Shown: positions 11,161 through 52,664 of the stretch, piece by piece
Layout: each line of letters starts with the position of its first letter
Numbering within the stretch: the first letter of the stretch is position 1
Position numbers and translations under genes: made by a program
The notes under the pieces: model-generated
The model's database searches: none
Told to the model about the DNA's origin: nothing
The model's input: the letters and a program-made list of their open reading frames with translations, nothing else
Assembly: GCA_005885285.1 (NCBI GenBank)
Contig: VAZG01000187.1
Location: forward strand, 2,282-66,281
Origin: Alphaproteobacteria bacterium
GTDB taxonomy: Bacteria; Pseudomonadota; Alphaproteobacteria; Rhizobiales; Xanthobacteraceae
Reading direction: 5' to 3'
DNA: 64,000 bases

Positions 11161-11451
11161 ATGTCACGTCGAACGATCTTCTCGTTGTTTGCGTCCGTTA
11201 TAATGGGCATCGCGTGCATGGCCATGATTTCAACTGATGCGTTCGCATATCGCGGCGGTGGACGCGTTGGCGTAGGCCGCGTTGGTGTTCATCACGGAGG
11301 CGCCTATCGCGGCGGCGTTTACCGGGGCGCAGCCGTACGTCGTGGCGTGGCGGTAGGCGTTGGCGCTGCTGCCGTCGGCGCTGCTGCCTACGGGGCTTAC
11401 GGACGTTACGCGCCAAGCTGCGGATACTATCCCAATCCGCCCTGCTACTAG
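11161..11451 (+). CDS. small secreted Gly/Arg/Val-rich protein
   Basis: Signal peptide ending AFA; RGGGRVGVGRV..RRGVAVGVGAAAVG; C-terminal CGYYPNPPCY. Confidence 0.7.
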   Translation: MSRRTIFSLFASVIMGIACMAMISTDAFAYRGGGRVGVGRVGVHHGGAYRGGVYRGAAVRRGVAVGVGAAAVGAAAYGAYGRYAPSCGYYPNPPCY

Positions 11452-11742
11452 AGCTGTCGTGCAAGCCGGTCTCCTTGAGGGGACCGGACGATGCGAACAT
11501 TGGTTGTGGCCAGTGCGCGTTCGGCAGGCTTTACGTGATTCAATTCGGGCCAGCACTTGGCGCGACGCTTTTCTGGGTATCGCCGATACCAAAAGAATAC
11601 AGGCGCCGCGTTTGGTCGCTGATCAGGCCTGTCGGTGTGGTCTGAAAGCCGTTCGGCTTGCCCAGCCGCTACTCCTGAAGGACTGGAACGACCGGCTCTG
11701 CTGAACGTCCGAGTAATGCCGGTGCGTCACTCCTGGCGACAG

Positions 11743-12015
11743 ATGCCGTATACGTGGTACGTGACTTTCGAGGTGCAGAAACGCGGTGTATTGCCTCGGA
11801 GGAGAAGCCCTCGGGCAACTAGAAGATTTGAGACTGAAAAGGAAGCCAGGGACTTCGCACGAGCGAAGTTCGATGAGGGACTGACTGTCTATGCCGGCAC
11901 TATCAACCCTCATTTGCCGAGACAGTTGATACCCTCGAGAAGCATCCCTTCCTGGCTCGGACAGGAAGAACAAGAAAACGCGGCGCCAGATGGCGCTCGG
12001 AAGCAAAAAAAGTAG
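11743..12015 (+). CDS. hypothetical basic protein
   Basis: MPYTWYVTFEV..YAGTINPHLPRQLIPS; plausible composition, no recognised domain. Confidence 0.5.
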   Translation: MPYTWYVTFEVQKRGVLPRRRSPRATRRFETEKEARDFARAKFDEGLTVYAGTINPHLPRQLIPSRSIPSWLGQEEQENAAPDGARKQKK

Positions 12016-12611
12016 CAGGCGGAATTGCGATTTGCACAACGGTTCGACGATGCGAAACCGGCGAGCTGATCCATCCCGCCTGCGAGCCGCCGCTTCAAAG
12101 CGACTTGGTTCCGGGCCCATCCGAGTCTGCTCGCGTTCAGCAGCGCTCGCTGCTGTTCACGGAAAAGGTCAGTAACACGTACATGAATTGAACCCTAGGT
12201 GTGATTCTATTGATTGCTCTTGTGTGTTGCCATTTTGGCATGGGGCCCTGGAGCGCACGCGCAACCGCGAAAGCGTCGCGAGAAGCTGTTGTAGAGGGAG
12301 GTCTGAAAGGTAACTAAACGAGACCCTGTTCTCGTACGAACGGACCCCTCTTTGCGGCTGCGCGAGAAGAAATCGCGTCGTCGCATGGCGCACCCCAAGG
12401 AAACGCGTCAGCAGGCACAACCTAGCACCTGGCGAAATTGAAGTCAGTTGGAAACGACGTTGAATAGGCGCCAGCCCCATCTCCGTTCCGGGTCCATCAA
12501 GGTACGTCGCGACTAAGCCTCGGAATGTCCGCTTCGGCTCCCTGGCAGCGGAGATGGCTGCGCGCGGGGGCCGACGTCAGTTGGGCGCCAAAGGGTGCCA
12601 TGGTCGCGCAT

Positions 12612-13322
12612 CTACCCCGTCACCTCACCCGCCGGCTCCGGACTTAGCCAGCGATAGATCAAGCCACCAGCTGCGCCCCCGATCAATGGCGCCACCCAAA
12701 ACAACCAGAGCTGCGCCAGCGCCCAACCGCCCACGAAAAGCGCGGGCCCGGTGCTGCGCGCCGGGTTCACAGAAGTATTGGTCACGCGGATGCTGAACAG
12801 ATGAACGAGGGTCAGCGCAAGGCCTATGGCGATTGGCGCAAATCCCGTCGGCGCCTTGCCGTGAGTTGCGCCCATGATGACGAAAAGAAACATCATCGTC
12901 AGCACGACTTCGGTCAGCACGCAGGCGCCTAGTCCGTATTTGCCGGGCGAGTGATCGCCATATCCGTTCGCCGCAAATCCACCAGCAAGGTTGAAGTCGG
13001 GCGATCCGCTGGCAATGGCATACAGCACTGTGGCGCCGACGATCGCACCAACCACTTGCGCTACCACGTAGGGGAAGACGAGGCTGGGCGGGAACCGTCG
13101 TCCGAATGTCAATCCCACGGTCACCGCCGGATTGAGATGGCAGCCCGAGACGTGGCCGATGGCATAGGCCATCGTGAGCAGGGTGAGGCCGAAAGCCAAG
13201 GCCACGCCGAGCATTCCGATGCCCACCTGAGGAATTCCGGCCGCGATCACGGCACTGCCGCAGCCGCCGAACGTCAACCAGAAGGTACCGATTGCTTCGG
13301 CCGCAAGTTTCTTGCCGTCCAT
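12612..13322 (-). CDS. aqpZ: aquaporin Z
   Basis: [18 protein letters not shown]; two NPA motifs (HLNPAV, SVNPARS). Confidence 0.95.
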
Positions 13323-13618
13323 TACAATCCTCCCTGGTCACTGAGGTTCAATTTTCGCGAATTTCCAAATGGCAGTGAGCAATGCTAAACGGCCTGTCAG
13401 GAAGGAAAAAGTCTTAGCCAGCGACATTAACGTCGACCCAGGGTCACTCAGCGTAGTTCTGACCGTCGGACCTAAGTCCCGTTTACGGGGCACGGACGCA
13501 AGCGGGCCGGTAGCCGCCGCGTCTGCAGCGGCTCCGCCTAGGACGCCCGTCTCCGTTTTGTTGTGAATGGACCCGAGAGGCGGCTCAAAAAGCCGCCGAT
13601 TTCGCCCATGTCGTTCTG

Positions 13619-13743
13619 TTGGCAGTGATGCATCAGTCCGTCGTCAAGCTTGACCATTTCACCGGGCGTGCACGTGAGGCCGTTGCGCGCCTGGTGGTCA
13701 TTCCACCCGCTGTAGCCGTACCCGGGGGCCGCCCGCGTAGTAG
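13619..13743 (-). pseudogene. remnant of a YYxGGPWxGYSGWxDxxARN family gene
   Basis: Reads YYAGGP-(frameshift)-YGYSGWNDHQARNGLTCTPGEMVKLDDGLMHHCQ; homologous fragment at 39643-39711. Confidence 0.55.
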
Positions 13744-13744
13744 G

Positions 13745-13766
13745 CCCCTCACTGCGTAGTGAGGGG
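13745..13766 (-). terminator. hairpin, likely terminator of the 13796-14299 gene
   Basis: CCCCTCACT-GCGT-AGTGAGGGG, 9-bp perfect stem about 30 bp after the stop; no strong U tract. Confidence 0.45.
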
Positions 13767-13795
13767 TGCTACTAATTGAACGACGAGAAGTGACG

Positions 13796-14299
13796 CTATT
13801 GCGTCTTGATTGTCCCGTTCGCGTTGAAGTTGTTCTTCGGATCGTACCCGGCGTCGTGTAGATTTCGGATATAAAGGTCGTAGTCGCTGCTACTCACACC
13901 GCCCCCCGCTGCGGATGGGTAACCGCCATAGTAGGCCGCCCTAGCCCCGAAAGCTCCGCCCCCGTAGTATCGACCACCACCGTAGTAACCTGTGCCTGTG
14001 TGGTAGGGGCTGCCTCCCCATCCCACGTTGGGTGAGGTGGCCGCAACCGCGGCAGCTGTACCGACCGCTGCGGCGCCTGCGCCGATTGCACCGGCGCCAT
14101 AACCATAACCAGCCCGCCGCGCATGTCGACGCGCAACACCTGCACCGCTCATGGGGGTCAGCGGGCGACCCACCCGTGCCTGAGCGCTCTCGACTGATAG
14201 CGTGACGCCGCCTTGCTCAGACCGACCGAAGGAGAGCAGCGCCGTACACGCAAACGTCGAGGCTGCAACAGCAACTGTCATCAGACCCATCTGCTTCAT
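13796..14299 (-). CDS. secreted Gly/Tyr-rich protein (ESAQARVGRP family)
   Basis: Signal-like N-terminus; LSVESAQARVGRPLTPMSGAGVARR motif shared with 39185-39454. Confidence 0.7.
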   Translation of the reverse strand: MKQMGLMTVAVAASTFACTALLSFGRSEQGGVTLSVESAQARVGRPLTPMSGAGVARRHARRAGYGYGAGAIGAGAAAVGTAAAVAATSPNVGWGGSPYHTGTGYYGGGRYYGGGAFGARAAYYGGYPSAAGGGVSSSDYDLYIRNLHDAGYDPKNNFNANGTIKTQ

Positions 14300-14483
14300 G
14301 GACTTTCTCCGTTACCTGCTTGCCCCATTTCGAAAACCATATGGCCTTCTCGTCCACGCCCCTTTGCGCACAGCCACTGATCCACATCACGCGCCGCCTG
14401 CCGCCTGCGGCCATCTGCTCTGGCAGCCTTAGCGCGCTCAAATCGCCGGCGCCTCCATCCCCGGCAGTTTGAATGCGCCGGCG

Positions 14484-14705
14484 CTAACAAGTCATTCCGA
14501 CTGCGCACCTACGGACGGCTCGGCGGGTCTGGCGAACGGCGGTTCTTGCCACACAAACCCCGTTCACCCGCGTCATGCCCGCGCCGCAGGCTCGAGCGAC
14601 TTTCGTAATCATGCCGTCCGGTTGAGGAATCGGCGCAGGCGTCATTGCTTGTGCCGATGTTGCAACCGATAAGGCGAAGCCAGCAACAGCCAACAACCTG
14701 ATCAT
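14484..14705 (-). CDS. small secreted Arg/Cys-containing protein
   Basis: Signal peptide (SAQA); CGAGMTRVNGVCVARTAVRQTRRAVRRC. Confidence 0.65.
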   Translation of the reverse strand: MIRLLAVAGFALSVATSAQAMTPAPIPQPDGMITKVARACGAGMTRVNGVCVARTAVRQTRRAVRRCAVGMTC

Positions 14706-14818
14706 TCTGCTCCTCCCTTAACCGTCCAATCGCTCTGGCCTCCCACAGCCCGGGATGGTCCGGCTCTCGTGTTCAAGTACTTCCCTCTACTAATTTCCGG
14801 CACTGGTCGCTCGAAGGC

Positions 14819-14832
14819 TTGAGATAGATCAA
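14819..14832. promoter_or_regulatory. FixK/FNR-like box
   Basis: TTGAG-ATAG-ATCAA, about 115 bp upstream of the 14705 start. Confidence 0.55.
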
Positions 14833-15108
14833 GGTCCATAAGACGACCGAGCCGGAACCTTCTCGAAACCCAGAAGACCGGCCATGACGCGCCGAGCCGT
14901 CGGTCGTCCGACGCGGGTACAAGGCCGCGTTCGCTTGAGAGCCCTAGCACGCTCCGCTCCTCACGCCTGGTGACTTAGCAGCGGACATCCCAATTTCGTC
15001 GGTTCAAGATCACGACCCAGATTCCAAGCAGCGGCCAGATCTCCCCTCTTCTCCCCGAAAGCGACATTCAACGAGGCGACCGGAACGCAGCCCTGCCAGG
15101 TTCATGCG

Positions 15109-15122
15109 TTGACTTGAATCAA
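15109..15122. promoter_or_regulatory. FixK/FNR-like box
   Basis: TTGAC-TTGA-ATCAA upstream of the SulP gene. Confidence 0.55.
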
Positions 15123-15178
15123 ACGAACCTGTCGGCAGAGCCTTATTCAAAATTGTGAATCGGTGGCTTTGGTGCTGC

Positions 15179-18196: not shown

Positions 18197-18628
18197 TCAC
18201 TCGAGTGTAATTCTGATTCCGCTCAGATTAGCCGAGAACTCCACGCCCGCCTTTGGACCCTGCAGCGTGATGATCACGCCCTTTTCATTCTTTAACTGCA
18301 CGCCTCCGACACCGCCGGCCAAAGCAGCGCCACCGCCGACAGCGGTATAGGTGCCGGCGAAGTCGTTCAACTGACTCAAATATGAAGCCCGCCCGACCAG
18401 GCGAGTGGTTGACGCGCCAATCGTCAGGCCCAGGCTCAAACCCGAAACCCTGAACGGATATTCGCGGCCATCATACGTCAATACCCCGCGCCCTAGGCCA
18501 GCTCCCGCAACCAAGCCAGCCTTTGTAAATGTGACGCGGAGAAATCCGATTTTTGCGTGAGAGGGGTGGACAGGAAGAAAGGTTGCAAGCAACGTCAGCA
18601 GAGCAAGTTGCACCAGATACCTGCGCAT
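18197..18628 (-). CDS. secreted beta-rich protein (possibly DUF1134/EipA-like)
   Basis: Signal peptide; GRGVLTYDGREYPFRVSGLS..GGVQLKNEKGVII; paralog at 23520-23957. Confidence 0.65.
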   Translation of the reverse strand: MRRYLVQLALLTLLATFLPVHPSHAKIGFLRVTFTKAGLVAGAGLGRGVLTYDGREYPFRVSGLSLGLTIGASTTRLVGRASYLSQLNDFAGTYTAVGGGAALAGGVGGVQLKNEKGVIITLQGPKAGVEFSANLSGIRITLE

Positions 18629-19823: not shown

Positions 19824-21062
19824 CTAGTGCCCCCCAAATACCAACGCCTTCAGTGGCAAAATGATTGCCTGCAGACGAAGGACGAGCGCGTGAACGAGAG
19901 CCACTGTATCGACGATGTGCAGATAAAGTTTCTTCAGAAAACCGAGGTCTTTCGATTCAAGCTCATCGTGGTGATTGGAGTAGACGTTTGCTATGCAGCT
20001 ACTTCCCGGTGGGACGTCGTTCAATCCGCCGTCATAGAGCGGCTCCAAAAACGCCAATACTGTGCCGGGCGGGCCGATCTTTTGCATCTCAGTGAGCAGG
20101 TTTGATCCAGTAATCTGCCCGGCTGCGATCACACTCTGTACCTTGGTGACGACGAGAGGGATGATGGTCATCGGTTTGCTGATGCAAGTCGCCTCGGCTA
20201 CCATGCCGACCTCAAGCACCTGCGCCTCGATCTGATTGAAGCCAGCAAAAAGCCTATTCTCTCCCGCGCCCTCCGGGATGAGGATGCCCGCCGCCCTGGT
20301 GACCGGCGCCGGCTGGACGATATCTCCGACCCGTAACACGAACTGGTCGACCCGTCCGTCAACACCGGCATAAGTGGTCATCTTGTCCAGTTCGACCTGA
20401 GCTTCGGCAAGCCCCGCTTCCGCACTTGCTTTCTGCGCAGGCAAGACGGTCGTAATCTTGGTTTGCGCCGACTCCTTGGCGGCCGCCGCCGCGTCAACGG
20501 CCCCTTGCCGTGTCGCCACCAGCGTTTGAAGCTTCTCAATCTCACGCGCTGCAACAATATCCGCATTGCGCTGCTGCAACGTTGACTTGGTTCGCAGTTC
20601 ATCCTGCGCCTGTCCCAGGGATCCCTTAGCTTCCTGAAGCTTGCCCTCGCTGGTCAGGACGTCGGCTCTTGCCGTCGCCATCGACGCATCCACCTCGACG
20701 ACCTGAAGGCGAGCCCGCTCAAGCGAAGCTTCCTGTCTCGTGCTGTCCATCTTGAACAGCGGATCGCCCTTCTTCACTCTCTGATTGTAATCGACGTAGA
20801 CCTTGGTTACCCGACCACCGACCTCGGGAAAGAGCGAAATGGTCCGGAACAGAGACGTCACATTTGTCGACGACGGATGGTTGTAAAGCACCACCGTGAT
20901 AAGGAGGACGGTCAGTATCAGGCAAAGCGTGATGCCCCACCGAAGTTCGTACCAGACCGAGAACAACGTGATTTCGCGGCCGAGGCGTTTGCCCTGTACA
21001 AAGCGACGGAACAGGAAGTCGGGGACCAGCGTCAGCATGGAGCACAGCATGAGCTCAAGCAC
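19824..21062 (-). CDS. HlyD family membrane fusion protein (YibH-like)
   Basis: GTG start overlapping the upstream stop; PEVGGRVTKVYVDYNQRVKKGDPLF lipoyl-like motif and coiled coil. Confidence 0.85.
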   Translation of the reverse strand: MLELMLCSMLTLVPDFLFRRFVQGKRLGREITLFSVWYELRWGITLCLILTVLLITVVLYNHPSSTNVTSLFRTISLFPEVGGRVTKVYVDYNQRVKKGDPLFKMDSTRQEASLERARLQVVEVDASMATARADVLTSEGKLQEAKGSLGQAQDELRTKSTLQQRNADIVAAREIEKLQTLVATRQGAVDAAAAAKESAQTKITTVLPAQKASAEAGLAEAQVELDKMTTYAGVDGRVDQFVLRVGDIVQPAPVTRAAGILIPEGAGENRLFAGFNQIEAQVLEVGMVAEATCISKPMTIIPLVVTKVQSVIAAGQITGSNLLTEMQKIGPPGTVLAFLEPLYDGGLNDVPPGSSCIANVYSNHHDELESKDLGFLKKLYLHIVDTVALVHALVLRLQAIILPLKALVFGGH

Positions 21063-21565: not shown

Positions 21566-21979
21566 TCAAATCGGACAGCGGTAGTAGCCGATCTCCATAT
21601 CCATGATGCCTGGAAACACCCGCGATATCTTGTTCGGCTCGAGCACCTTGAGACTGAACTGGACGTTCGAGAGCATGATGTCGGTCGCGCATCCCGCGAT
21701 GATATTCACGGTCTGACCATCCTCTTTCCTGCTCTTGATCTTGCAACTGGCAAATTTGCCTCTGAGTCGATCGGCCTCCACAATGAAGCCGCCGCCGTAC
21801 TGCTCGGACATTGCGGTAAACCCAATTTGGTTTGCTCGGCCTTTCCTGGTGAAGACCTGGCTGCATTGATCCGCATTCGTCGCCCATGCTCCGGAGAGGT
21901 CCACGGCATGCGCCTTTTCAACAACCATCAAGCCCGTCAATGTCGTGGCAGCGATGGCGAACTTGAGTAGCCGCTCCAC
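21566..21979 (-). CDS. secreted hypothetical protein
   Basis: GTG start with RBS; signal peptide (AHA); DLSGAWATNADQC; four Cys. Confidence 0.65.
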   Translation of the reverse strand: MERLLKFAIAATTLTGLMVVEKAHAVDLSGAWATNADQCSQVFTRKGRANQIGFTAMSEQYGGGFIVEADRLRGKFASCKIKSRKEDGQTVNIIAGCATDIMLSNVQFSLKVLEPNKISRVFPGIMDMEIGYYRCPI

Positions 21980-23519: not shown

Positions 23520-23957
23520 TTACTCCAGCGCGATTTCGACCCTGCTCACCGCGGCCGATAGTTCCACGCCGACCTTAGCCCCGTGTAGCTGGAGGATCAC
23601 GCCCTTGTTGTTTCGCAGCTGGACGCCACCCGCGCCGCCCGCGAGTGCGCCGCCGGCACCGATCGCACTGTAAGTGCCTGCGATGTCGTCCGGGCTGCGG
23701 ATGTTCAACGCCCGGCCCGCCAATTGGTTGGTCGATGTTCCAATCGTGGCCCCGAAACTCAGGCCGGAAACGCGAAAAGGATAATTGTGCCCGCGGAACG
23801 TCAGGACACCGCGACCACTGCCGACACCTAGGACGAATCCTGCCTTCTTGAAGTCGACGCGAACGGCACCAGTCTCCGCTCGCGAGGCCGTAGCGAGACT
23901 CGACGCGAGCAGTGCTGCCAGAGCCAGTTGAATAATCGATGTTGAGTGCTGTCTCAT
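23520..23957 (-). CDS. secreted beta-rich protein, paralog of 18197-18628
   Basis: GRGVLTFRGHNYPFRVSGLS..GGVQLRNNKGVIL. Confidence 0.65.
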   Translation of the reverse strand: MRQHSTSIIQLALAALLASSLATASRAETGAVRVDFKKAGFVLGVGSGRGVLTFRGHNYPFRVSGLSFGATIGTSTNQLAGRALNIRSPDDIAGTYSAIGAGGALAGGAGGVQLRNNKGVILQLHGAKVGVELSAAVSRVEIALE

Positions 23958-24125: not shown

Positions 24126-24445
24126 ATGCGACGACGTCTGCTGCGTGTTCTCATCTTCTACATGGTTATTATGCTGGTGTTGATCGCTGCGGCCCTCGCT
24201 GACGACCAACCCGCAGATCGTGCCATCCAGGAGGAGGTGTGGGCGATTCCGCTCACGATGCCCACGATCGCTTACGTAGTTCGTCCGATTGGCAACTGTC
24301 CGTTTCGGCTTGAGGTCATGAACCATGGTGTTTTGCTCAACCAGCCAGAGCGCAGCTTCTTTCCGATCGTTGAATTCAGAGATGCCGCGATGTGGTTCGC
24401 GCGGACGGACTAAATGGTCGCTGCGCCGACGGGCTCGGGATACGC
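24126..24445 (+). pseudogene. truncated secreted alpha/beta hydrolase (dienelactone hydrolase-like)
   Basis: VRPIGNCPFRLEVMNHG..FRDAAMWFAR, premature stop, then MVAAPTGSGY; the catalytic core is absent. Confidence 0.6.
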
Positions 24446-25070: not shown

Positions 25071-25090
25071 AAGAGCTGTTGATAGATTGC

Positions 25091-25729
25091 TCAGCTCGTC
25101 TGTCGGCTACCTGACACACTGTCCAGGACGCCCGCTCGTTCGGCCAGGGAGACAAGTTCGGCGAGCGATTGGACTTGCATCTTCTCCATAACCCTGTGGC
25201 GATGAGCCTTGATTGTGCGTTCGGTCGCGCCCAGTGCGTTAGCGACCTCCTTGTTGGTCTTGCCGCGAATGACAAGTTCGAAGACCTCATGCTCGCGCGG
25301 CGTCAATGCAGCGATATGAGCGCGAATGGTGTCGAGCTCCATCCTTATGCTACGTGTCGCTTCATGACGCGAGATTGCTCGCTGAATGCTGCGAAGCAGT
25401 TGATCAGGCTTAACCGGCTTTGTCAGGAAATCATCCGCGCCCGCCTTGATCGCCTGGACCGTAGTCGGAACATCGGTATAACCTGTCAGAAACACGATTG
25501 GCAGCGTCGAGCCGAGTTCGCCGAGGCGGCTTTGCAGCTCCGGACCGCTCAAACCAGGTATCCGCACATCAAGAAGCAGACAGCCTGGACCGCTCTCATT
25601 GGGCAAGCGATCCAGCAAATGCTGGGCCGAAGGATATGTTGCGACTTCGTAGCCAGCCTTCTTCAAGCGGCGTTCGATGGCCGTCCGGAACGAAGCATCA
25701 TCATCGACAATATGCACGATGCCCAGCAT
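25091..25729 (-). CDS. FixJ/NodW-type response regulator (REC + LuxR HTH)
   Basis: HIVDDD, LLLDVRIPG, LTPREHEVF..TIKAHRHRVMEKM. Confidence 0.92.
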   Translation of the reverse strand: MLGIVHIVDDDASFRTAIERRLKKAGYEVATYPSAQHLLDRLPNESGPGCLLLDVRIPGLSGPELQSRLGELGSTLPIVFLTGYTDVPTTVQAIKAGADDFLTKPVKPDQLLRSIQRAISRHEATRSIRMELDTIRAHIAALTPREHEVFELVIRGKTNKEVANALGATERTIKAHRHRVMEKMQVQSLAELVSLAERAGVLDSVSGSRQTS

Positions 25730-26370: not shown

Positions 26371-27042
26371 ATGCTTGTCAACATCAACGCTGTTTCAGCC
26401 AAGAGACAAAATGCTCTCGGTGAGCTTGGAGAGCTTTCCCGCTCACGGATCTTTTTAAGCGAATTCAAATATAATAGGGGCGCTGAGATCTACGGAGAAA
26501 CGGAGACCGCGGACTACATCTACCAGGTGCTGGAGGGTGCGGTCCGGAGTTATAAGCTTCTGTTCGACGGCCGCCGCCAAATCGGGGCCTTCCACCTGGT
26601 TGGCGACATCTTTGGGTTGGAAAATGGCGCCGCCCACCGTTTTACCGCAGAGGCAATTGTCGACACGACCGTGCGCCTGATGAAGCGGCGCAGTCTCGAA
26701 CACGTGGCGGAAACCGACGTGGTCGTAGCACTTGACCTCTTGATCATGACGACCGGCAACCTTCAGCACGCTGAGGATCACATGCTGCTGCTGGGACGCA
26801 AGACATCCCTTGAGCGCGTTGCCGCATTCCTTTTGGAGATGGATCGGCGCTTGACCGCCAAGAGCGTGATGGCCCTTCCGATGTCTCGTCGCGATATCGC
26901 TGACTATCTCGGCCTTACCCTCGAAACTGTATCGCGCGCGCTGTCATATCTTCACGCCAAAGGGATCCTTGGTTTCCTGGGGCCAACCCAACGTCAGATC
27001 GTTTTGTTGGACCGTCTCCGATTGGCCGAGCTCGATCTTTGA
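26371..27042 (+). CDS. fixK: FixK-like Crp/Fnr transcription regulator
   Basis: GRRQIGAFHLVGDIFGLE; HTH SRRDIADYLGLTLETVSR; lacks the N-terminal FNR Cys cluster. Confidence 0.85.
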   Translation: MLVNINAVSAKRQNALGELGELSRSRIFLSEFKYNRGAEIYGETETADYIYQVLEGAVRSYKLLFDGRRQIGAFHLVGDIFGLENGAAHRFTAEAIVDTTVRLMKRRSLEHVAETDVVVALDLLIMTTGNLQHAEDHMLLLGRKTSLERVAAFLLEMDRRLTAKSVMALPMSRRDIADYLGLTLETVSRALSYLHAKGILGFLGPTQRQIVLLDRLRLAELDL

Positions 27043-30161: not shown

Positions 30162-30588
30162 TCACCAGACTCCGTTACCGAACCAAGCAAATTGCGGTTG
30201 CCGGGCTGCCGGCAGATGTCTCTTGGCAACCTTGTATTGGCGTTGCAGCTTTGGCTTTCGCAATTTTTGGACGAATGGCTGCAATTGCTCGGTGTCGGAC
30301 AGCTGCGCAAACGCCTCACGCACCCTCACTTTGGCTGAGACGTCGGCGATCATTGCCGAGGCGTTGGCGCCGACCTCCGCGCTCGCGATCTGCACGGGAA
30401 TGATTGTCGGGAGGCTCGTATCGTAAGCAATGCGCTCCGGCCATTTCCGATCGGAATGAATACGGATGATGTACGAACCCGTGCCGGCCCTGTGCGTAAT
30501 CGGCGGTTTCGGAAGATATGCATCCAAAATAAAAAGGCAGTACGAGCAATATTCCGCCAACGAGCGAAAAATATCGCGCGAGAGGCAT
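30162..30588 (-). pseudogene. frameshifted paralog of 10301-10735
   Basis: MPLARYFSLVGG start in one frame and IRIHSDRKWPERIAYDT body in another; +1 shift near 30535. Confidence 0.7.
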
Positions 30589-30867
30589 CCGTTGCGGCAC
30601 CTGGTAAGCATTGGCAAGCATTGGTCGAAGTCGGCCCCTCCATGAATAACGACGCCAGTCCATTGGTATGATTGCGACGCCGGTCCGTCCGCTCCGCGGC
30701 GCGGCAACGAAAACGGCTATCTTGGTGGAAATCGCCGCAAACCAAGGTTGCACTCCGCGGCCCTTCGAGTCGAACTCGGGCACGGTCCTGTTGCGGCAGA
30801 TATCCGCTTTGGCCCGACCCGAGCGATCCGCGACGTCGGAAGAGTGCTATCCGCGCGAAAGATCCAA

Positions 30868-31107
30868 TCAGCGGCGACCGACGCGATCCACCGGACCGCC
30901 GCGATTCCTGGGCGTTCCAGGCGCGCCGACCCCGGGGGTCACCACCGCGCGCGCGACGGGCCGTGGACGAAGCACCACACCCGCCCTCACGGTGCAGCCA
31001 ACAGGGTAGTCGACATATTGGCAGTAGACCACGGCACCAACCTGTTCCGTACCAGCTGTTACGAAGCCAGCGACAAGCAGCGCGGATGATGCGATCAAGA
31101 ATTTCAT
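30868..31107 (-). CDS. small secreted Arg/Val/Pro-rich protein
   Basis: Signal peptide; VVYCQYVDYPVGC..RPRPVARAVV. Confidence 0.65.
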   Translation of the reverse strand: MKFLIASSALLVAGFVTAGTEQVGAVVYCQYVDYPVGCTVRAGVVLRPRPVARAVVTPGVGAPGTPRNRGGPVDRVGRR

Positions 31108-31214: not shown

Positions 31215-31228
31215 TTGATACAGATCAA
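31215..31228. promoter_or_regulatory. FixK/FNR box
   Basis: TTGAT-ACAG-ATCAA, perfect, about 108 bp upstream of the 31107 start. Confidence 0.72.
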
Positions 31229-39032: not shown

Positions 39033-39184
39033 GCAGGAGGGCGCGCTGCTTTTTGGTCAGAGACTTGTCGCAGCGCTTAGGTGCGTTCCCTTGTGAGGGC
39101 ACCATATGCCCCGCCCTCCAGCCTCGTTGTCCGGCCAACGAAACATTCTGGAGGGCATATTTTGTGGCGCGATCAGGTTAAGCC

Positions 39185-39454
39185 TCAGCGGCAGACATAC
39201 GACCCATTTACCAGTACGCGGACACAGCGCGTGGCGGCTGCACCAACAGTCGCTCCGCCTACTACCGCGCGCCGTGTCGTTCGTCGCGCAACGCCTGCAA
39301 CGCTCACCGGGGTTCCCGGCCGTCCCACCCTGGCCTGCGCGCTTTCAATTGACAGCGAAAGACCGTTCCTTGCTGACCAGTCTGCGGACCCTAGAGCTCC
39401 ACATGCGACAACGGCGACAACCAAACATACCTTCTTAACGCTGATTTGCCTCAT
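39185..39454 (-). CDS. small secreted protein (ESAQARVGRP family)
   Basis: LSIESAQARVGRPGTPVSVAGVARRTTRR. Confidence 0.7.
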   Translation of the reverse strand: MRQISVKKVCLVVAVVACGALGSADWSARNGLSLSIESAQARVGRPGTPVSVAGVARRTTRRAVVGGATVGAAATRCVRVLVNGSYVCR

Positions 39455-39506: not shown

Positions 39507-39520
39507 TTGATCTAGGTCAA
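39507..39520. promoter_or_regulatory. FixK/FNR box
   Basis: TTGAT-CTAG-GTCAA, 53 bp upstream of the 39454 start. Confidence 0.7.
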
Positions 39521-39642
39521 GGAACCTCGTTGGCTTGACGTGGAGTCGCGGCAAGCCATGGCCGGGGAGCAGGACCTACCTTAGTCGCATTCCGAGAGCG
39601 AAGGCGTAGAGGTCAGGCCCACTTTCACTTCACTATGCAGTG

Positions 39643-39711
39643 CGGGCCTACTACTACGAGGGCGGCCCCTGGTGTGGCTACAGCGGGTGGGATGACTACA
39701 CGGCGCGCAAC
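39643..39711 (+). pseudogene. fragment RAYYYEGGPWCGYSGWDDYTARN, homologous to 13619-13743
   Basis: Direct similarity of the two translated fragments. Confidence 0.55.
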
Positions 39712-39744
39712 TCCCTTCACGATCATGGTTTCCAAAAATCGAGA

Positions 39745-47359: not shown

Positions 47360-47736
47360 GGGCATCGGTTTCCACGATCCCTCCTAAGAGCGGCAGTTTT
47401 TTGCGTGACTTTGGAGTAAACGGCCGACGCGAGTTTCGCGGGCACCACCTTGGAGCGAGACATCCGATTGCTCATTGCTACAGTGTGATTCCAGACAAGA
47501 GGACAAGCAGATGACGAGCTGCGTATCCGAATGGAAGTCTGGTTGTCGGCCGATTCGACCAGCGAAAACTTTCGAACTGAGTTCTTGGCGAATGGCGTCT
47601 TGCCTAACAAAAGCCGGACGCTCTTGAAGTTTGTCCGATTTTGCATAGTCGCCCCGGGGGGTGCGCGTTACCCTCCCAGAGCAATTTCGGGGACGGAGCC
47701 TCCTGAGCGCCCTAGCGCAACAAAAGGAATATTCAC

Positions 47737-49179: not shown

Positions 49180-49311
49180 GAGCACGAGATAGCAGCCTCG
49201 GCATCGGGGATTCCGAGCGATTGCCGAACCCAAGGGATCGGCGTCGCGTCGCAATGATGGCCACTAACGCCGGCAGCGGTGGCGATCGGCCCAGCGTTTG
49301 GAGTAACGAGC

Positions 49312-50634
49312 ATGATGTCGACGAAATTGCCGATTTGGCTTCGCTTTTTCCTTCTTGTCGGTGTTGTCATCTTTGCGGCAGGCGCAGGTCTCCTTGCCTA
49401 TCGATATTACACCCGCCCGGCAACGCTGACGGTGGCGGTCGGCTCGATCGACGGCGAGGCCGCCAAGGCAATGTCCGCGATCGCAAGCGAGCTCGTTTCG
49501 ACCAACGCGCCGGTGCGGCTTAAGGTTATCGACAGCGGCACCGCACTTGAGGCCGCTAATGCCTTCTCCGCGGGCAAAGTCGATCTCGCCGTGGTTCGCG
49601 GCGATGTCGGCGACCTGTCGCAAGCCCAAGCCGTCGTCGTCGTCAGCCATATGGTCGTACTGATGATTGCACCGCCCGGATCGCCCATCGACGGCATCGA
49701 CGGCCTGAAGGGACATACGATCGGCGTGGTCGGCGGCGCAGCGAACGCCAAAATTGTCGACGTGTTGACCAAGGAATATGATCTGGCCAATGCAAAAGTT
49801 GTGTTCAAGAACCTTGCCTTGACGGATGTCCGGCAAGCCATTCAGTCAAAACAGGTTAGTGCCCTGCTTGTCGCGATCCCGCTCGCCGAAAAATATCTCG
49901 CGCTCGTTCGCGGATTTTTTCAGCTCGACCACAAGAAGGTGCCGGTGCTGATCCCAATCGAGTCCGCGGCGGCAATCGCCGAGGCCGAACGCGCCTTTGA
50001 AAGTTTCGACGTCCCCAAGGGCACGCTGCGGGGAGCGCCACCGGTCCCGGACGATGACCTGACGACCTTGCGGACCTCGTTATATCTGGTGGCCCAGAAG
50101 AAGCTCGGCACCGATCTCGTCACCAGCCTGACGCAAGCGATCATGAGGGTGCGCAGGGATCTTCTGCGCGAGCAGCCGATCTTCGCGCAGATCACCGCGC
50201 CCAGCACCGACCAGGACGCCTACCTTCCATTGCACCCTGGAGCGGCAGCCGTGTACAACAGCACCACGCAGAGTTTTATGGATGAATACGGCAACTGGAT
50301 CTATCTGACGCCGATGGTGCTTGGCGGCGTTGCTACCATGCTTGCCGCAGCCTGGAATTTTCTCGGCATCGGCAAGTCCGCGCCTGAAGGCCCGCTGGAT
50401 TCTCTTTATGCCCTGGCGCGCCGAATTCGGAAGGTCAACACAGACATCGAATTGTCGGACATCGAAGAAGAAATCGACGACATCCTAAAAGCGGAGCGCG
50501 TCAAATCCACTGCCGGAGACGAGAGCGCGGTCGATGCTGTCACATTGAACGTGGCAGCCCATCGGCTGGAGAGCTTGATTCACGACCGGCGCGCATTGCT
50601 CGCGAAGAGACCCGCCGTTGCCTCCGCGGCCTAG
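49312..50634 (+). CDS. TAXI-family TRAP solute-binding-like protein with membrane anchors
   Basis: TLTVAVG..VDLAVVRGD..PLHPGAAAVY; additional C-terminal TM. Confidence 0.75.
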   Translation: MMSTKLPIWLRFFLLVGVVIFAAGAGLLAYRYYTRPATLTVAVGSIDGEAAKAMSAIASELVSTNAPVRLKVIDSGTALEAANAFSAGKVDLAVVRGDVGDLSQAQAVVVVSHMVVLMIAPPGSPIDGIDGLKGHTIGVVGGAANAKIVDVLTKEYDLANAKVVFKNLALTDVRQAIQSKQVSALLVAIPLAEKYLALVRGFFQLDHKKVPVLIPIESAAAIAEAERAFESFDVPKGTLRGAPPVPDDDLTTLRTSLYLVAQKKLGTDLVTSLTQAIMRVRRDLLREQPIFAQITAPSTDQDAYLPLHPGAAAVYNSTTQSFMDEYGNWIYLTPMVLGGVATMLAAAWNFLGIGKSAPEGPLDSLYALARRIRKVNTDIELSDIEEEIDDILKAERVKSTAGDESAVDAVTLNVAAHRLESLIHDRRALLAKRPAVASAA

Positions 50635-50705
50635 TCGATACCGACCACGTCGCCCACCCGACGCGGAGCTGACCGAAGCAGAGAATAAAACCATGGAGAG
50701 CCGTC

Positions 50706-50918
50706 ATGAAACATCTGATGATTCCGGTATTGCTGGCAGCAGGCCTCATTGCCCTGAGCACGATGGAAGCAAGCGCTGTCGTTTGCGCGCGTGGGGTGGT
50801 TCGTGCTGGCTGCGTCGCCGCCGGCGGCAGTGCCGCCGTGGTGAGAGCGCCAGTCGTCCGTCCTGCCGGTGCGGTTGTCGCGCCACGGGGTGCCGTGGTT
50901 CGCCGCAGAGTGTACTGA
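50706..50918 (+). CDS. small secreted Arg/Val-rich protein
   Basis: RBS GGAG; signal peptide (EASA); VCARGVVRAGC..VVRRRVY. Confidence 0.65.
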   Translation: MKHLMIPVLLAAGLIALSTMEASAVVCARGVVRAGCVAAGGSAAVVRAPVVRPAGAVVAPRGAVVRRRVY

Positions 50919-51014
50919 TATTTCAGCACGTATCGGCATCGCCAGGCTCATCCGGTCGCTCTGTTGCCAAGTAGATGCAGAGCGATGGCTGCTGCTTCGA
51001 GACAATGGTGAATC

Positions 51015-51758
51015 ATGAATGCAATCGCGCTATCGTGCATCACGTTTGCATGCATCTCTGGCGGTGCCCTGCTCGGCATGTTCCTTCCCGGGCATCACCT
51101 GAGCACCGATGATAAGGATTTTGTCAGGCTGGGCACGGGCCTCATCGGGACTATCGCCGCGCTTGTCCTCGGCCTCCTGATCGCCTCGGCAAAGAGCTCT
51201 TACGACACACAGAGCACCCAAGTCACGCATATGACGAGCAATATTGTCCTGCTCGACAATCTGCTGACGGAGTATGGACCGGAGACGAATGCACTACGGA
51301 ATCTGTTACGGCGCGGCGTCGTTGTCTTAGCCGATCGAATGTGGCGTGAGAACAGTTCTGACGTCGCCAAGGTCAGCCCATTCGCGGCGAGCAGCGAAAG
51401 CGAAACATTCTTTGCGAAACTTCAGCAGCTATCGCCGCAGAACGATTCACAGCGCTCCCTGCAAGCCAGGGCCATACAGATCGCCACCGACATTGCGCAA
51501 ACCCGCTTGCTGCTGTTCGCGCAGACGAACAACTCAATCCCGATGCCGTTCCTGGTCGTTCTGATTTTCTGGCTCACCATCATCTTTGGTACCTTCGGGC
51601 TGTTTACGAAACCAAATGCAATCGTTTTTAGCTCGCTGTTCGTTTTTGCGTTGTCGGCGGCCGGCGCGATTTACCTCGTTCTGGAGCTGGGCCAGCCGTT
51701 TGCGGGTCTGATGCAAATCTCCAGCGCGCCGCTTCGCAACGCCCTCATGCCGCTTTGA
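51015..51758 (+). CDS. DUF4239-like membrane protein
   Basis: IAALVLGLLIASAKSSYD; LELGQPFAGLMQIS. Confidence 0.75.
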   Translation: MNAIALSCITFACISGGALLGMFLPGHHLSTDDKDFVRLGTGLIGTIAALVLGLLIASAKSSYDTQSTQVTHMTSNIVLLDNLLTEYGPETNALRNLLRRGVVVLADRMWRENSSDVAKVSPFAASSESETFFAKLQQLSPQNDSQRSLQARAIQIATDIAQTRLLLFAQTNNSIPMPFLVVLIFWLTIIFGTFGLFTKPNAIVFSSLFVFALSAAGAIYLVLELGQPFAGLMQISSAPLRNALMPL

Positions 51759-52074
51759 GTTACCGCGTGACGGCAAAGCGAGGCAGCCGTTATTTGGCGA
51801 TCAGATCCATTTGGAGCACTTGGTCCGCGACTGCAATGACCAATTGAGAGCTCACAATTATCATCGAGAATGAGATCGGCATCTCAGGCCTCCTACTCGG
51901 TCTGGCTCGTCGGCTCTCCACTTTCTTCGGAGCCGGCGGCTTTCGTCGATGCGAAAACGGACCGACAAATCTTTTGTGGCCAACAAAGGGCCGTTTTTGC
52001 ATAGACAAGCTGGGCGAATGCTATTTGGCTCGTCGGATTGAGGCATCTGTCAAACAAGCCAAAGGGATACTGAC

Positions 52075-52347
52075 ATGCGGGCCCAAATTGCATACCCGGC
52101 GATCCTCACAGCATCCGTATTAGGTTCGATGCTGACGGCCACAGCACAAACCGGCGAGTTCCCCCTTCAAATCCCTGGCTCAGTCGTTCACCGCGGCTGG
52201 GAGATTCAAGACCAGGCACAAGCTGCCCGATCAGCCACGGCCGCCAGATCGGTGAGGCGCACCGGCGGAAGTTACGATGGTTCGAAATCTGCGAAGCCAG
52301 TAGCAGGTGGCGTCACGACAACCTCCGGGACCAAGGGCGAACGATGA
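52075..52347 (+). CDS. small secreted hypothetical protein
   Basis: Signal peptide (ATA); followed by a terminator-like hairpin. Confidence 0.45.
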   Translation: MRAQIAYPAILTASVLGSMLTATAQTGEFPLQIPGSVVHRGWEIQDQAQAARSATAARSVRRTGGSYDGSKSAKPVAGGVTTTSGTKGER

Positions 52348-52411
52348 GATACTGCTAAGGATGTTGGTGATTTCTCCTTGGTCGCGCACTGAGCGCTGGT
52401 TTAGAAGAAGC

Positions 52412-52435
52412 AAGGCCGCCAACTGAGGCGGCCTT
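52412..52435. terminator. hairpin AAGGCCGCC-AACTGA-GGCGGCCTT
   Basis: 9-bp perfect stem between convergent units. Confidence 0.6.
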
Positions 52436-52533
52436 ATTTCTTCGTGCCAACAGCTTGCCGCTAGAGTTTTCGACCATGCGTCCCCAGCCGCAACGGGCGC
52501 AAATTCGGCATGTTGGCGCGGTCCTGCATCAAT

Positions 52534-52664
52534 TTAGTAGCACGGCCCATACGGATAGTATCCGCAACGAGCAGCTCCGTAAGCTCCAGCGGCAGCTGCT
52601 CCCACTGCAGCAGCTCCGACGCCTACCGCCACTCCACGGCGTACGACTGCACCACGATAAACGC
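52534..52664 (-). pseudogene. 3' remnant of a paralog of the 11161-11451 peptide
   Basis: Reads VYRGAVVRRGVAVGVGAAAVGAAAAGAYGAARCGYYPYGPCY*. Confidence 0.75.

What the first reader, a model, noticed from the sequence alone, without database searches (positions are those of the whole stretch)
11161..52664. Dispersed set of small secreted cationic Arg/Gly/Val-rich peptides, mostly behind FixK boxes
Six intact genes (11161, 13796, 14484, 30868, 39185, 50706) and one remnant (52534) encode a signal peptide plus a short low-complexity Arg/Val/Gly-rich mature region. Five of the six intact ones also have paired Cys (CGYYPNPPCY, VCARGVVRAGC, YCQYVDYPVGC). Four have a FixK box 53-128 bp upstream (11020, 14819, 31215, 39507), and 14299 has a weak one (14377). 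Such genes are usually left as hypothetical. Their composition fits membrane-active or antimicrobial peptides, polyanion binders (polyP, EPS, eDNA) or amyloid-like matrix proteins. This is my best candidate for an undescribed hypoxia-induced secreted peptide system; the function is entirely inference.
Basis: partly seen in the sequence, partly recalled or inferred. Interest (0 to 1): 0.72.

Follow-up and report, generated by a model that had tools for sequence, protein, structure and literature searches.

The report
Small cationic exported proteins behind FixK boxes
Six tiny genes in a low-oxygen gene island of a Bradyrhizobium-like soil bacterium are real and conserved; they encode exported, arginine-rich mini-proteins from five unrelated families, four of which sit behind a FixK/FNR-type site in many genomes, and their function is still unknown.

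Summary
All six ORFs and the remnant are where stated. Each ORF has a Shine-Dalgarno sequence, a Sec-like signal peptide and a 46-141 aa mature part with net charge +5 to +8. Five have paired Cys.

They are real genes. Four families have 863 to about 2,900 homologues (p39185, p11161 and p50706 by word-index search, E<=0.001 or 0.01; 1,404 50%-identity clusters for the p39185/p13796 module), and the p14484 and p30868 families were found in 15-20 related genomes. dN/dS is 0.12-0.31. Soil metatranscriptome contigs cover three of them.

They are not one family. Profile comparison relates only p13796 and p39185. None matches Pfam, NCBIfam or PDB.

The FixK-box link is real and conserved. A box with at most one mismatch lies 40-145 bp upstream in 80% (p39185), 89% (p30868), 59% (p14484), 54% (p11161) and 29% (p13796) of homologues, against 5.6% of neighbouring genes. 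p50706 never has one.

The window is a FixK island, with 17 boxes where 0.9 are expected and with FixJ-like and FixK-like regulator genes.

Function is inferred only. The most likely reading is disordered cationic envelope proteins of the low-oxygen regulon acting on the cell's own envelope. An antimicrobial role looks unlikely.

The parts
11161..11451 (+). p11161: 96-aa precursor. Signal peptide MSRRTIFSL...DAFA, then an Arg/Gly-rich stretch, the small-residue segment RRGVAVGVGAAAVGAAAYGAYG, and the C-terminal loop CGYYPNPPCY.
   Evidence: ORF and SD. Family of 1101 hits with a near-invariant mature core. dN/dS 0.16. Metatranscriptome contig of a close relative on 11148-11312, with 4 of the 5 listed differences at third codon positions.
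11020..11033 (.). FixK/FNR-type box TTGATCCAAATCAA, 127 nt upstream of p11161.
   Evidence: An exact box is present in 38 of 72 family members, at two preferred spacings (58-67 and 112-131 nt).
13796..14299 (-). p13796: 167-aa precursor. Signal peptide, the conserved module ESAQARVGRPLTPMSGAGVARRHARR, a Gly/Ala stretch and a Gly/Tyr-rich tail. No Cys in the mature part.
   Evidence: Paralogue of p39185 over the N-terminal 76 aa (50% identity; hhalign 99.7%). dN/dS 0.31. Metatranscriptome contigs at 100% identity on 14170-14320 and 13715-13890.
14377..14390 (.). Degenerate box GTGATGTGGATCAG (read on the - strand), 77 nt upstream of p13796.
   Evidence: In the family, 12 of 41 members have a box with at most 1 mismatch at 40-145 nt, and 15 of 41 have an exact TTGA-N6-TCAA within 300 nt.
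14484..14705 (-). p14484: 73-aa precursor. Signal peptide ...SAQA, then a mature part with four Cys (ACGAGMTRVNGVC ... RRCAVGMTC).
   Evidence: Homologues in 15 genome loci. dN/dS 0.20.
14819..14832 (.). FixK/FNR-type box TTGAGATAGATCAA, 113 nt upstream of p14484.
   Evidence: 10 of 17 family members have a box with at most 1 mismatch.
30868..31107 (-). p30868: 79-aa precursor. Signal peptide, then VVYCQYVDYPVGC followed by an Arg/Pro/Val-rich tail ending in RVGRR.
   Evidence: The identical protein occurs on many soil metagenome contigs. Homologues in 20 further loci. dN/dS 0.19.
31215..31228 (.). FixK/FNR-type box TTGATACAGATCAA, 107 nt upstream of p30868, in the gap after the K+ channel gene.
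   Evidence: 16 of 17 (exact box) and 16 of 18 (at most 1 mismatch) family members have a box.
39185..39454 (-). p39185: 89-aa precursor. Signal peptide, the module ESAQARVGRPGTPVSVAGVARRTTRR, the stretch AVVGGATVGAAATR, and the C-terminal hairpin CVRVLVNGSYVCR.
   Evidence: 2856 hits by word-index search, and 1404 50%-identity clusters by exhaustive HMM search with the p39185 profile, mostly matching the N-terminal module. dN/dS 0.22. AlphaFold gives only the signal helix and a C-terminal beta-hairpin (residues 79-88, pLDDT about 77). 230-nt metatranscriptome contig at 100% identity on 39167-39396.
39507..39520 (.). FixK/FNR-type box TTGATCTAGGTCAA, 52 nt upstream of p39185. TATCGT lies 28-33 nt from the box centre, where a -10 element would be if the box is centred at -41.5.
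   Evidence: 43 of 49 homologues have an exact box 51-65 nt from the start codon, including Bradyrhizobium LT670845.1.
50706..50918 (+). p50706: 70-aa precursor. Signal peptide ...MEASA, then VVCARGVVRAGC followed by an Ala/Val/Arg/Pro tail ending in RRRVY. No FixK box.
   Evidence: 863-hit family. Conserved position between a TAXI-type binding-protein gene and a bestrophin-like gene; no box in 4 distinct loci; dN/dS 0.12-0.28.
52537..52662 (-). Remnant of a p11161-type gene. Only the C-terminal ...RRGVAVGVGAAAVGAAAAGAYGAARCGYYPYGPCY survives; the stop codon is at 52534-52536.
   Evidence: tblastn 82% identity over 44 aa. In-frame TGA upstream, no signal peptide, and it abuts an MFS N-terminal fragment.
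26371..27042 (+). FixK-like CRP/FNR regulator gene, the probable reader of the boxes.
   Evidence: Pfam cNMP_binding + HTH_Crp_2. Best NCBIfam match is FixK, 215 bits, below the 300-bit equivalog cut-off.
25091..25729 (-). FixJ-like response regulator gene, divergent from the FixK-like gene.
   Evidence: Best NCBIfam match is FixJ, 186 bits, below the 255-bit cut-off.

Best explanation
Shown:
- The six ORFs are genuine protein-coding genes from five unrelated families: p11161 (plus its remnant), p13796/p39185, p14484, p30868 and p50706.
- Each encodes a Sec-type signal peptide followed by a short, strongly cationic (Arg, not Lys), Gly/Ala/Val-rich mature protein that is largely predicted disordered.
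- Five carry one or two short Cys-x8-10-Cys loops.
- In Bradyrhizobium-like bacteria, four families (and part of the p13796 family) sit as monocistronic units behind a TTGAT-N4-ATCAA site at fixed spacings. The window also encodes FixJ-like and FixK-like regulators in the middle of a box-dense island.

Inferred:
- The genes are switched on by FixK at low oxygen from class II promoters.
- The products are exported to the periplasm, where the Cys loops are oxidised to disulfide hairpins.
- The Arg-rich disordered segments bind anionic envelope components (phospholipid head groups, LPS, peptidoglycan or periplasmic glucans), while the conserved small-residue stretches (for example RRGVAVGVGAAAVGAAAYG and RRAVVGGAAVGAAAAG) drive self-association or shallow membrane insertion.

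On this reading they are envelope-conditioning stress proteins of the low-oxygen regulon that act on the producer's own envelope. They are analogous in role, not in sequence, to small stress-induced envelope proteins such as OsmB or SlyB. They are not a dedicated secreted peptide weapon.
For: Real genes:
- SD sites, and conserved starts and stops.
- Large families.
- dN/dS 0.12-0.31.
- Transcript contigs for p39185, p13796 and a p11161 relative in soil metatranscriptomes that carry only 18-35-nt spurious pieces for the other genes in the 16.5 kb laid.

Export:
- n/h/c signal-peptide anatomy in all six, and an even number of Cys in five mature parts.
- In the alignments the signal-peptide region varies while the mature core is near-invariant.

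Disorder and hairpin:
- AlphaFold models have mean pLDDT 53-54. Only the signal helix, a weak helix over the Gly/Ala stretch (p11161) and a C-terminal hairpin (p39185) are predicted.

FixK control:
- 17 boxes against 0.87 expected in the window.
- A box with at most 1 mismatch at 40-145 nt in 80%, 89%, 59%, 54% and 29% of p39185, p30868, p14484, p11161 and p13796 homologues, against 5.6% of 1094 neighbouring genes.
- Fixed spacing of 51-65 nt for p39185.
- FixJ-like and FixK-like genes in the island.

Acting on the producer's own envelope rather than as a weapon:
- The genes are single-copy, syntenic and spread across the genus.
- They have no consistently adjacent partner gene.
Against: - No experiment or dataset here shows O2 or FixK dependence, translation, export, disulfides or any ligand.
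- SignalP was not available; the signal-peptide call is heuristic.
- An exported protein with +8 net charge is unusual for Sec substrates. The Gly/Ala stretch could instead be a true transmembrane helix, which would change the topology.
- p50706 lacks the box, and most p13796 homologues lack a good one, so 'low-oxygen regulon' does not cover the whole set.
- The five families may well have five different functions. The shared composition could partly reflect GC-rich codon bias.
Confidence: 0.5

Rival explanations
1. They are small integral-membrane subunits or modulators of low-oxygen-induced membrane proteins (channels, transporters, oxidases). The Gly/Ala/Val stretch would act as a glycine-zipper transmembrane helix packing against a partner.
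For: - Conserved stretches of about 18-20 small or hydrophobic residues flanked by Arg.
- AlphaFold places a helix over residues 58-82 of p11161.
- The genes lie next to membrane-protein genes: a K+ channel (p30868, in 9 of 18 genomes), a bestrophin-like channel (p50706, conserved), and SulP and AqpZ in the window.
Against: - Mean hydropathy of the stretch is low (about 1.4 for p11161, my estimate from the sequence, not a tool result).
- Cys loops lie beyond the stretch, and Arg clusters lie on both sides of it.
- The N-terminal segment looks cleavable.
- Adjacency to any one partner is only partial.
- p30868, p50706 and p14484 have no such stretch.
Confidence: 0.2
2. They are extracellular polyanion binders or matrix proteins (EPS, eDNA, polyP, amyloid-like fibres) released under hypoxia.
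For: - Extreme positive charge.
- Gly/Tyr-rich tails in p13796 and its longer relatives.
- A PPK2 gene lies behind another FixK box in the island.
Against: - The genes identified in the window and the related loci include no curli/Fap-like or other outer-membrane secretion gene. Several neighbouring ORFs have no family match, so a novel one cannot be excluded.
- A Sec signal alone delivers only to the periplasm.
- PolyP made by PPK2 is cytoplasmic.
Confidence: 0.1
3. They are antimicrobial or competition peptides (bacteriocin-like, membrane-active).
For: - Small, cationic, disulfide-stapled and hydrophobic/cationic in composition.
- A weak sub-threshold Pfam match of p14484 to Moricin (E = 0.18).
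Against: - The genes identified around them include no immunity, ABC-exporter or maturation gene that travels with them. An HlyD-like/ABC-transporter pair lies beside the p50706 homologue in one of four loci, and several neighbouring ORFs remain unannotated.
- They are conserved orthologues across a genus under purifying selection, not a strain-variable arsenal.
- The Moricin match is far below threshold.
- Control by an oxygen regulon is not typical of bacteriocins (background knowledge).
Confidence: 0.07
4. The p13796/p39185 N-terminal module is a pro-peptide or recognition unit. The proteins are processed at the RR-x2-RR sites to release short peptides (signal or effector).
For: - The module is nearly always N-terminal and is combined with many different C-terminal tails, in proteins of 63-286 aa.
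- The same 20-residue unit occurs 3-5 times in tandem, between acidic spacers, in two metagenomic proteins. One of them is on a eukaryote-like marine contig.
Against: - No protease or modification gene is linked to it.
- The two repeat proteins are singletons from short contigs of unknown origin.
- Dibasic sites are also simply what an Arg-rich binder would contain.
Confidence: 0.06
5. The ORFs are spurious: chance open frames in GC-rich DNA, or non-coding RNAs.
For: - Low-complexity, GC-codon-rich composition.
- GC3 is not elevated (0.56-0.66).
- p50706 as read here is not in the public protein collection, so it may not have been called as a gene on this contig.
Against: - dN/dS 0.12-0.31 in this reading frame.
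- Conserved start, SD, stop and length across dozens of species.
- No Rfam match in the window.
Confidence: 0.02

Closest known systems
FixLJ-FixK2 low-oxygen regulon of Bradyrhizobium diazoefficiens (Mesa et al. 2008, cited in PMC6515984; Fernandez et al. 2019, PMC6515984)
   Same: - The same palindromic TTGAT-N4-ATCAA site upstream of the genes.
- FixJ-like and FixK-like regulator genes in the island.
- Island content typical of microoxic metabolism: cytochromes c, Pta-AckA, a PHA-synthase-like protein and stress genes.
- Published regulon lists contain many short 'hypothetical protein' entries (bsr/bsl tags).
   Different: - No publication found here describes these five families.
- The only bridge to strain USDA 110 is a source-given label, 'bsr2672', on one homologue of p39185. 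That tag returned no hit in the full-text search or in the two supplements searched.
- Regulation by FixK is inferred from the box, not measured.
Small stress-induced glycine-zipper envelope proteins (E. coli OsmB, SlyB/Pcp; Pfam Gly-zipper_Omp, Gly-zipper_YMGG, Rick_17kDa_Anti)
   Same: - Small, exported, with conserved Gly/Ala-rich stretches, and induced by a stress regulon (background knowledge).
- JGI labels one p39185 homologue 'outer membrane lipoprotein SlyB'.
   Different: - No Pfam or NCBIfam match even at E <= 1.
- No conserved lipobox: the Cys in the p39185 signal peptide is Phe in many orthologues.
- Strong Arg excess and C-terminal Cys loops.
Small Cys-hairpin secreted proteins of Rhizobiales (NCBIfam GCG_CRPN prefix-to-repeats domain; 'cysteine rich repeat protein' labels)
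   Same: p14484 (ACGAGMTRVNGVC), the p39185 tail (CVRVLVNGSYVC) and the tails of long p13796 relatives (C-x-PGT-x5-DG-x4-C) all have a C-x2-G-x4-6-[ND]G-x1-4-C hairpin. From memory, this resembles that family. One p14484 homologue is labelled 'Cysteine rich repeat protein' in UniRef.
   Different: No NCBIfam or Pfam model matched, so the resemblance is a recalled motif pattern, not a tested membership.
Cationic antimicrobial peptides
   Same: Size, charge and disulfide stapling.
   Different: No linked export or immunity genes were recognised; the genes are vertically conserved under purifying selection; no family match.

Membership tests
FixK/FNR (CRP-family) class II activated promoters | Palindromic TTGAT-N4-ATCAA site upstream of the gene. 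| tested here: met
   Exact TTGA-N6-TCAA at 11020, 14819, 31215 and 39507. A 2-mismatch site for p13796. None for p50706. Conserved in homologues at 5-16 times the control frequency.
FixK/FNR (CRP-family) class II activated promoters | Site centred near -41.5 relative to the transcription start. | not testable with these tools
   No TSS data. Spacings to the ATG (52-127 nt) and a TATCGT at the expected -10 position for p39185 are compatible. Metatranscriptome contig ends lie inside the predicted transcripts.
FixK/FNR (CRP-family) class II activated promoters | Expression depends on the regulator and on low oxygen. | not testable with these tools
   No isolate RNA-seq was found for orthologues. 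Only soil metatranscriptomes were available.
FixK/FNR (CRP-family) class II activated promoters | A cognate regulator is encoded in the genome. | tested here: met
   CRP/FNR protein at 26371-27042, best match FixK (215 bits, below the equivalog cut-off), and a FixJ-like regulator at 25091-25729.
Sec-exported proteins with a cleavable signal peptide | Positive n-region, hydrophobic h-region, and small residues at -3/-1. | tested here: met
   The heuristic scan is met by all six. SignalP is not available. In p11161 the n-region SRRTIF also resembles a Tat motif; this is unresolved.
Glycine-zipper envelope proteins (Pfam PF13488, PF13441, PF05433) | A match to the family HMM. | tested here: not met
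   No Pfam hit at E <= 1 for any of the six.
GCG_CRPN / cysteine-rich repeat small proteins (NCBIfam) | A match to the family HMM. | tested here: not met
   No NCBIfam hit at E <= 1 apart from two irrelevant sub-threshold ones.
Bacteriocins / ribosomal antimicrobial peptides | Linked immunity, export or maturation genes, and patchy strain-specific distribution. | tested here: not met
   Neighbours are metabolic and transport genes without consistent partners. The families are orthologous across more than 70 species-level genomes, with dN/dS below 0.35.
Functional amyloids (curli CsgA, Fap) | Imperfect repeats plus a dedicated outer-membrane secretion operon. | tested here: not met
   No Pfam match. 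The genes identified in the window or related loci include no CsgG/FapF-like gene.
   hhalign on mature-region alignments: p13796-p39185 99.7%; every other pair 17% or less.

The most novel reading that the evidence does not exclude
The roughly 20-residue unit (A/G)xVGRPLTPVSVAGVARR-x2-RR may be a portable functional peptide module rather than just the conserved start of one bacterial family. In Nitrobacteraceae it sits right after a signal peptide, behind a FixK box, fused to many different tails. In two metagenomic proteins it is repeated 3-5 times between acidic spacers, like a prohormone or a Kex2-type repeat precursor; one of those proteins is on a eukaryote-like marine contig. If so, these would be processed cationic peptides with a conserved molecular target shared across domains, produced by soil bacteria specifically at low oxygen.
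Probability: 0.08. Interest if true: 0.8.

Novelty: new variant of a known kind. Interest (0 to 1): 0.55.

Why it matters
FixK/FNR regulons are the central switch for microoxic life and for symbiosis in Bradyrhizobium, and a sizeable part of them is still labelled 'hypothetical'.

This work shows that at least four unrelated families of tiny, highly cationic, exported proteins are conserved FixK-box targets. The evidence covers dozens of species-level genomes for p39185, p30868 and p14484, and soil metagenome contigs for p11161. Three of the window's six genes (or a close relative) are also picked up in shallow soil metatranscriptomes. Together this defines a concrete, testable class of low-oxygen envelope factors.

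They are short enough to synthesise and easy to delete. They could bear on envelope permeability, stress tolerance or nodule persistence.

The result also corrects the idea of a single 'peptide system'. It supplies consensus sequences from which family models could be built, since no Pfam or NCBIfam model matched any of the five families.

Tried and rejected
- Pfam and NCBIfam scans of all six proteins found nothing usable.
- PDB sequence searches with three family profiles returned only chance hits with E > 0.05.
- AlphaFold on 59- and 56-sequence alignments gave mean pLDDT 53-54. The models are too poor for fold search.
- Rfam on the whole window gave no match.
- Homology among all the families was rejected by hhalign, apart from p13796/p39185.
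- An obligatory partner gene was rejected:
  - the ~145-aa membrane protein next to p11161 and p30868 is adjacent in only 5 of 19 p30868 homologues and 3 of 81 p11161 homologues;
  - the K+ channel, GNAT and AI-2E genes are adjacent in only a subset.
- Mapping to B. diazoefficiens USDA 110 locus tags and published FixK2 transcriptomes failed:
  - the only lead was a 'bsr2672' label;
  - that tag is absent from the searchable full texts and from the two supplements checked;
  - Mesa et al. 2008 is not held in the library.
- No isolate RNA-seq for orthologues was found.
- The lipoprotein idea for p39185 (VVAC) was rejected because that Cys is not conserved.

Full report
**What is there**

Each is preceded by a Shine-Dalgarno-like motif.

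A simple anatomy check finds the following in every one:
- a positively charged n-region, a hydrophobic core (mean Kyte-Doolittle 2.0-3.3) and an AXA-type cleavage site;
- a mature part of 46-141 aa with net charge +5 to +8, almost no Lys, Asp or Glu, and 38-67% Gly+Ala+Val;
- mature Cys counts of 2, 0, 4, 2, 2, 2.

The remnant at 52537-52662(-) is real. It matches the last 44 residues of p11161 at 82% identity and keeps the stop codon. It has an in-frame TGA just upstream and abuts an MFS-transporter N-terminal fragment, which looks like a deletion junction.

A six-frame screen for 'SD + signal-peptide-like start + 40-180 aa' returns only ten ORFs in 64 kb, and all six are among them. The set is therefore not cherry-picked from noise.

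**Are they genes?**

Yes.
- Five of the six exact sequences are already in public protein collections as 'hypothetical protein'.
- p39185 has 2856 word-index hits and 1404 clusters at 50% identity in an exhaustive HMM search. p11161 has 1101 hits and p50706 has 863.
- p14484 and p30868 homologues turn up in 15 and 20 of the Bradyrhizobium-type loci fetched for p39185.
- In the alignments the signal-peptide region varies while the mature core is almost invariant.
- Pairwise Nei-Gojobori dN/dS medians are 0.16 (p11161), 0.31 (p13796), 0.22 (p39185), 0.20 (p14484) and 0.19 (p30868). For p50706 the range is 0.12-0.28.
- No Rfam family matches anywhere in the window.

Shallow soil metatranscriptomes (80-400 Mb) give further support:
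- a 230-nt contig identical to 39167-39396;
- contigs identical to the 5' end (14170-14320) and the 3' end (13715-13890) of p13796;
- a contig from a close relative on 11148-11312, with four of the five listed differences at third codon positions.

Apart from 18-35-nt pieces of unrelated or chimeric contigs, nothing lay on the other genes in the 16.5 kb laid. These contigs are unstranded, and DNA carry-over cannot be excluded, but the selectivity argues for abundant transcripts.

**One family or several?**

Several. BLAST and profile-profile comparison of mature regions relate only p13796 and p39185 (50% identity over the first 76 residues; hhalign 99.7%). Every other pair scores 17% or less.

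None of the six matches Pfam or NCBIfam at E <= 1, and the three family profiles searched (p39185, p11161, p50706) match no PDB sequence.

What the families share is architecture, not ancestry: a signal peptide, Arg-rich low-complexity sequence, and a short Cys-x8-10-Cys loop.

- **Loops.** CGYYPNPPC, CVRVLVNGSYVC, CGAGMTRVNGVC, CQYVDYPVGC and CARGVVRAGC.
- **Small-residue stretches.** Three members also have a conserved stretch flanked by Arg: RRGVAVGVGAAAVGAAAYG, RRAVVGGAAVGAAAAG and RRAGYGYGAGAIGAGAAAVG.
- **Structure prediction.** AlphaFold on deep alignments predicts little beyond the signal helix, a weak helix over the p11161 Gly/Ala stretch and a C-terminal hairpin in p39185. Mean pLDDT is 53-54, so the proteins are mostly disordered.
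- **N-terminal module.** The p13796/p39185 module (signal peptide + ...SAQARVGRPLTPVSVAGVARR-x2-RR + Gly/Ala stretch) is combined with many different C-terminal tails, in proteins of 63-286 aa.

**The FixK boxes**

The window contains 17 exact TTGA-N6-TCAA sites against 0.87 expected. It also encodes a FixJ-like response regulator (25091-25729) and a FixK-like CRP/FNR regulator (26371-27042). For both, FixJ/FixK are the best NCBIfam matches, but below the equivalog cut-offs.

Other boxes precede cytochrome c genes, a SulP transporter, a DUF308 protein, a gene pair ending in PPK2, CoA-transferase, a DUF3141 (PHA-synthase-like) gene, an AI-2E transporter and a GNAT gene. The Pta-AckA-SDR-K+ channel genes lie between two boxes. 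The region is therefore a low-oxygen regulon island, and within the window alone four boxed genes out of six is only mildly remarkable.

The decisive test is comparative. I examined 79 loci from species-representative genomes (Bradyrhizobium, Nitrobacter and soil MAGs) and 80 metagenome loci.

| Family | Exact box within 300 nt | Box with <=1 mismatch at 40-145 nt, distinct upstream regions |
|---|---|---|
| p39185 type | 43 of 49, fixed at 51-65 nt from the start codon | 41/51 |
| p30868 type | 16 of 17 | 16/18 |
| p14484 type | 8 of 14, plus 4 of 4 in metagenome loci | 10/17 |
| p11161 type | 38 of 72, in two modes (58-67 and 112-131 nt) | 33/61 |
| p13796 type | 15 of 41 | 12/41 |
| Control: likely neighbouring genes | not computed | 61/1094 (5.6%) |

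For p39185, the box centre is 59 nt from the ATG, and TATCGT sits where a -10 element would lie if the box is centred at -41.5.

p50706 has no box in the window or in four distinct loci. It instead keeps a conserved position between a TAXI-type binding-protein gene and a bestrophin-like gene.

**How it probably works**

*Shown:* these are real genes with export-type N-termini, a cationic disordered mature part, paired Cys, a conserved FixK-type cis-element for four to five families, regulator genes nearby, and transcription in soil.

*Inferred:*
- FixK activates the genes at low oxygen.
- Sec exports the products.
- The Cys loops are oxidised in the periplasm.
- The Arg-rich segments bind anionic envelope components.
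- The small-residue stretches mediate self-association or shallow membrane insertion.

I favour a role on the producer's own envelope, for four reasons:
- The genes are single-copy, syntenic and spread across the genus under purifying selection.
- No exporter, immunity or maturation gene travels with them; an HlyD-like/ABC-transporter pair beside one p50706 homologue is not conserved.
- A Sec signal alone reaches only the periplasm.
- Cys pairs are what an oxidising compartment would use.

The rivals are ranked in the report sections: small transmembrane modulators of hypoxia-induced membrane proteins, extracellular polyanion or matrix binders, antimicrobial peptides, and processed peptides. 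None is excluded by data. The five families may not share one function.

**Comparison with what is known**

The regulatory side matches the Bradyrhizobium FixLJ-FixK2 paradigm (PMC6515984 and references therein). Published FixK2-dependent gene lists contain many short hypothetical genes. I could not tie these families to specific USDA 110 tags beyond a source label, 'bsr2672', on one p39185 homologue.

On the protein side, the nearest analogies are small stress-induced glycine-zipper envelope proteins and the Cys-hairpin small secreted proteins of Rhizobiales. Membership in the corresponding Pfam and NCBIfam families was tested and not met.

I therefore rate this as a new variant of a known kind: uncharacterised protein families within a known regulon type.

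**Limits**

- There is no SignalP, TSS, Ribo-seq, proteomic or oxygen-shift data.
- The metatranscriptome evidence consists of unstranded assembled contigs.
- Structure models are of low confidence.
- The homologue sets come from capped searches (best 80 loci each). Some metagenome loci are near-duplicates; this was handled by counting distinct upstream regions.

Noticed in passing
window 1-64000 (boxes at 1549, 7536, 11020, 14819, 15109, 16959, 22067, 24035, 27098, 31215, 37067, 38408, 39507, 41745, plus weaker sites at 20526, 25924, 40064): The whole window is a FixK-box-dense island, with 17 sites against 0.87 expected. It holds FixJ-like (25091-25729) and FixK-like (26371-27042) genes, cytochromes c, a Pta-AckA-SDR-K+ channel operon, DUF3141, AI-2E, PPK2, CoA-transferase, DUF308, SulP and AqpZ. 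Parts of it are syntenic in about 15-20 of 79 related genomes.
   Followed up: partly
P0502 (locus L182 155-1015) and P0628: The unit VGRPLTPVSVAG(V/S)ARR-x2-RR of the p13796/p39185 module occurs 5 times (P0502) and 3 times (P0628) in tandem between acidic spacers. P0502 lies on a 1.9-kb Tara Oceans marine contig with AT-rich flanks that looks eukaryotic. The origin and meaning are unknown.
   Followed up: partly
window 39640-39715 (+): The fragment RAYYYEGGPWCGYSGWDDYTARNS resembles the C-terminal GGPW-GY-GWxDY-ARNGI-C-PGT module of long p13796-family members (for example P0614 and P0550). It then diverges, so it looks like a decayed small-protein gene on the other side of box 39507.
   Followed up: partly
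window 10301-10735 (-) and 30162-30611 (-): These are two paralogues of a ~145-aa protein with one N-terminal hydrophobic segment and a conserved YVIRIHSDRKWPERIVYDT(N/S)LPTIIP core. It has no Pfam or NCBIfam match. In the second copy the expected N-terminus (MPLARYFSLVGG...) lies in another frame (ORF 30316-30783), so it may be frameshifted. The family lies directly downstream of p30868 homologues in 5 of 19 genomes.
   Followed up: partly
window 52623-52922 (-): A 99-codon ORF that looks like the N-terminus of an MFS transporter ends where the p11161-like remnant begins. This probably marks a deletion or rearrangement junction.
   Followed up: no
window 18197-18628 (-), 21566-21979 (-), 23520-23957 (-), 24126-24413 (+): These are further signal-peptide-bearing ORFs of 95-145 aa without family matches (18197-18628 was not scanned). 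Three of them are next to FixK boxes 22067 and 24035. They were not analysed for conservation.
   Followed up: no
window 57341-59803 (-): A large molybdopterin oxidoreductase with an N-terminal Rieske_3 domain (arsenite-oxidase AioA-like architecture) lies at the far end of the window.
   Followed up: no
window 11161-11190: The p11161 signal peptide starts MSRRTIFSL, close to the twin-arginine consensus S/T-R-R-x-F-L-K, and this is conserved in the family. Tat rather than Sec export is possible.
   Followed up: no
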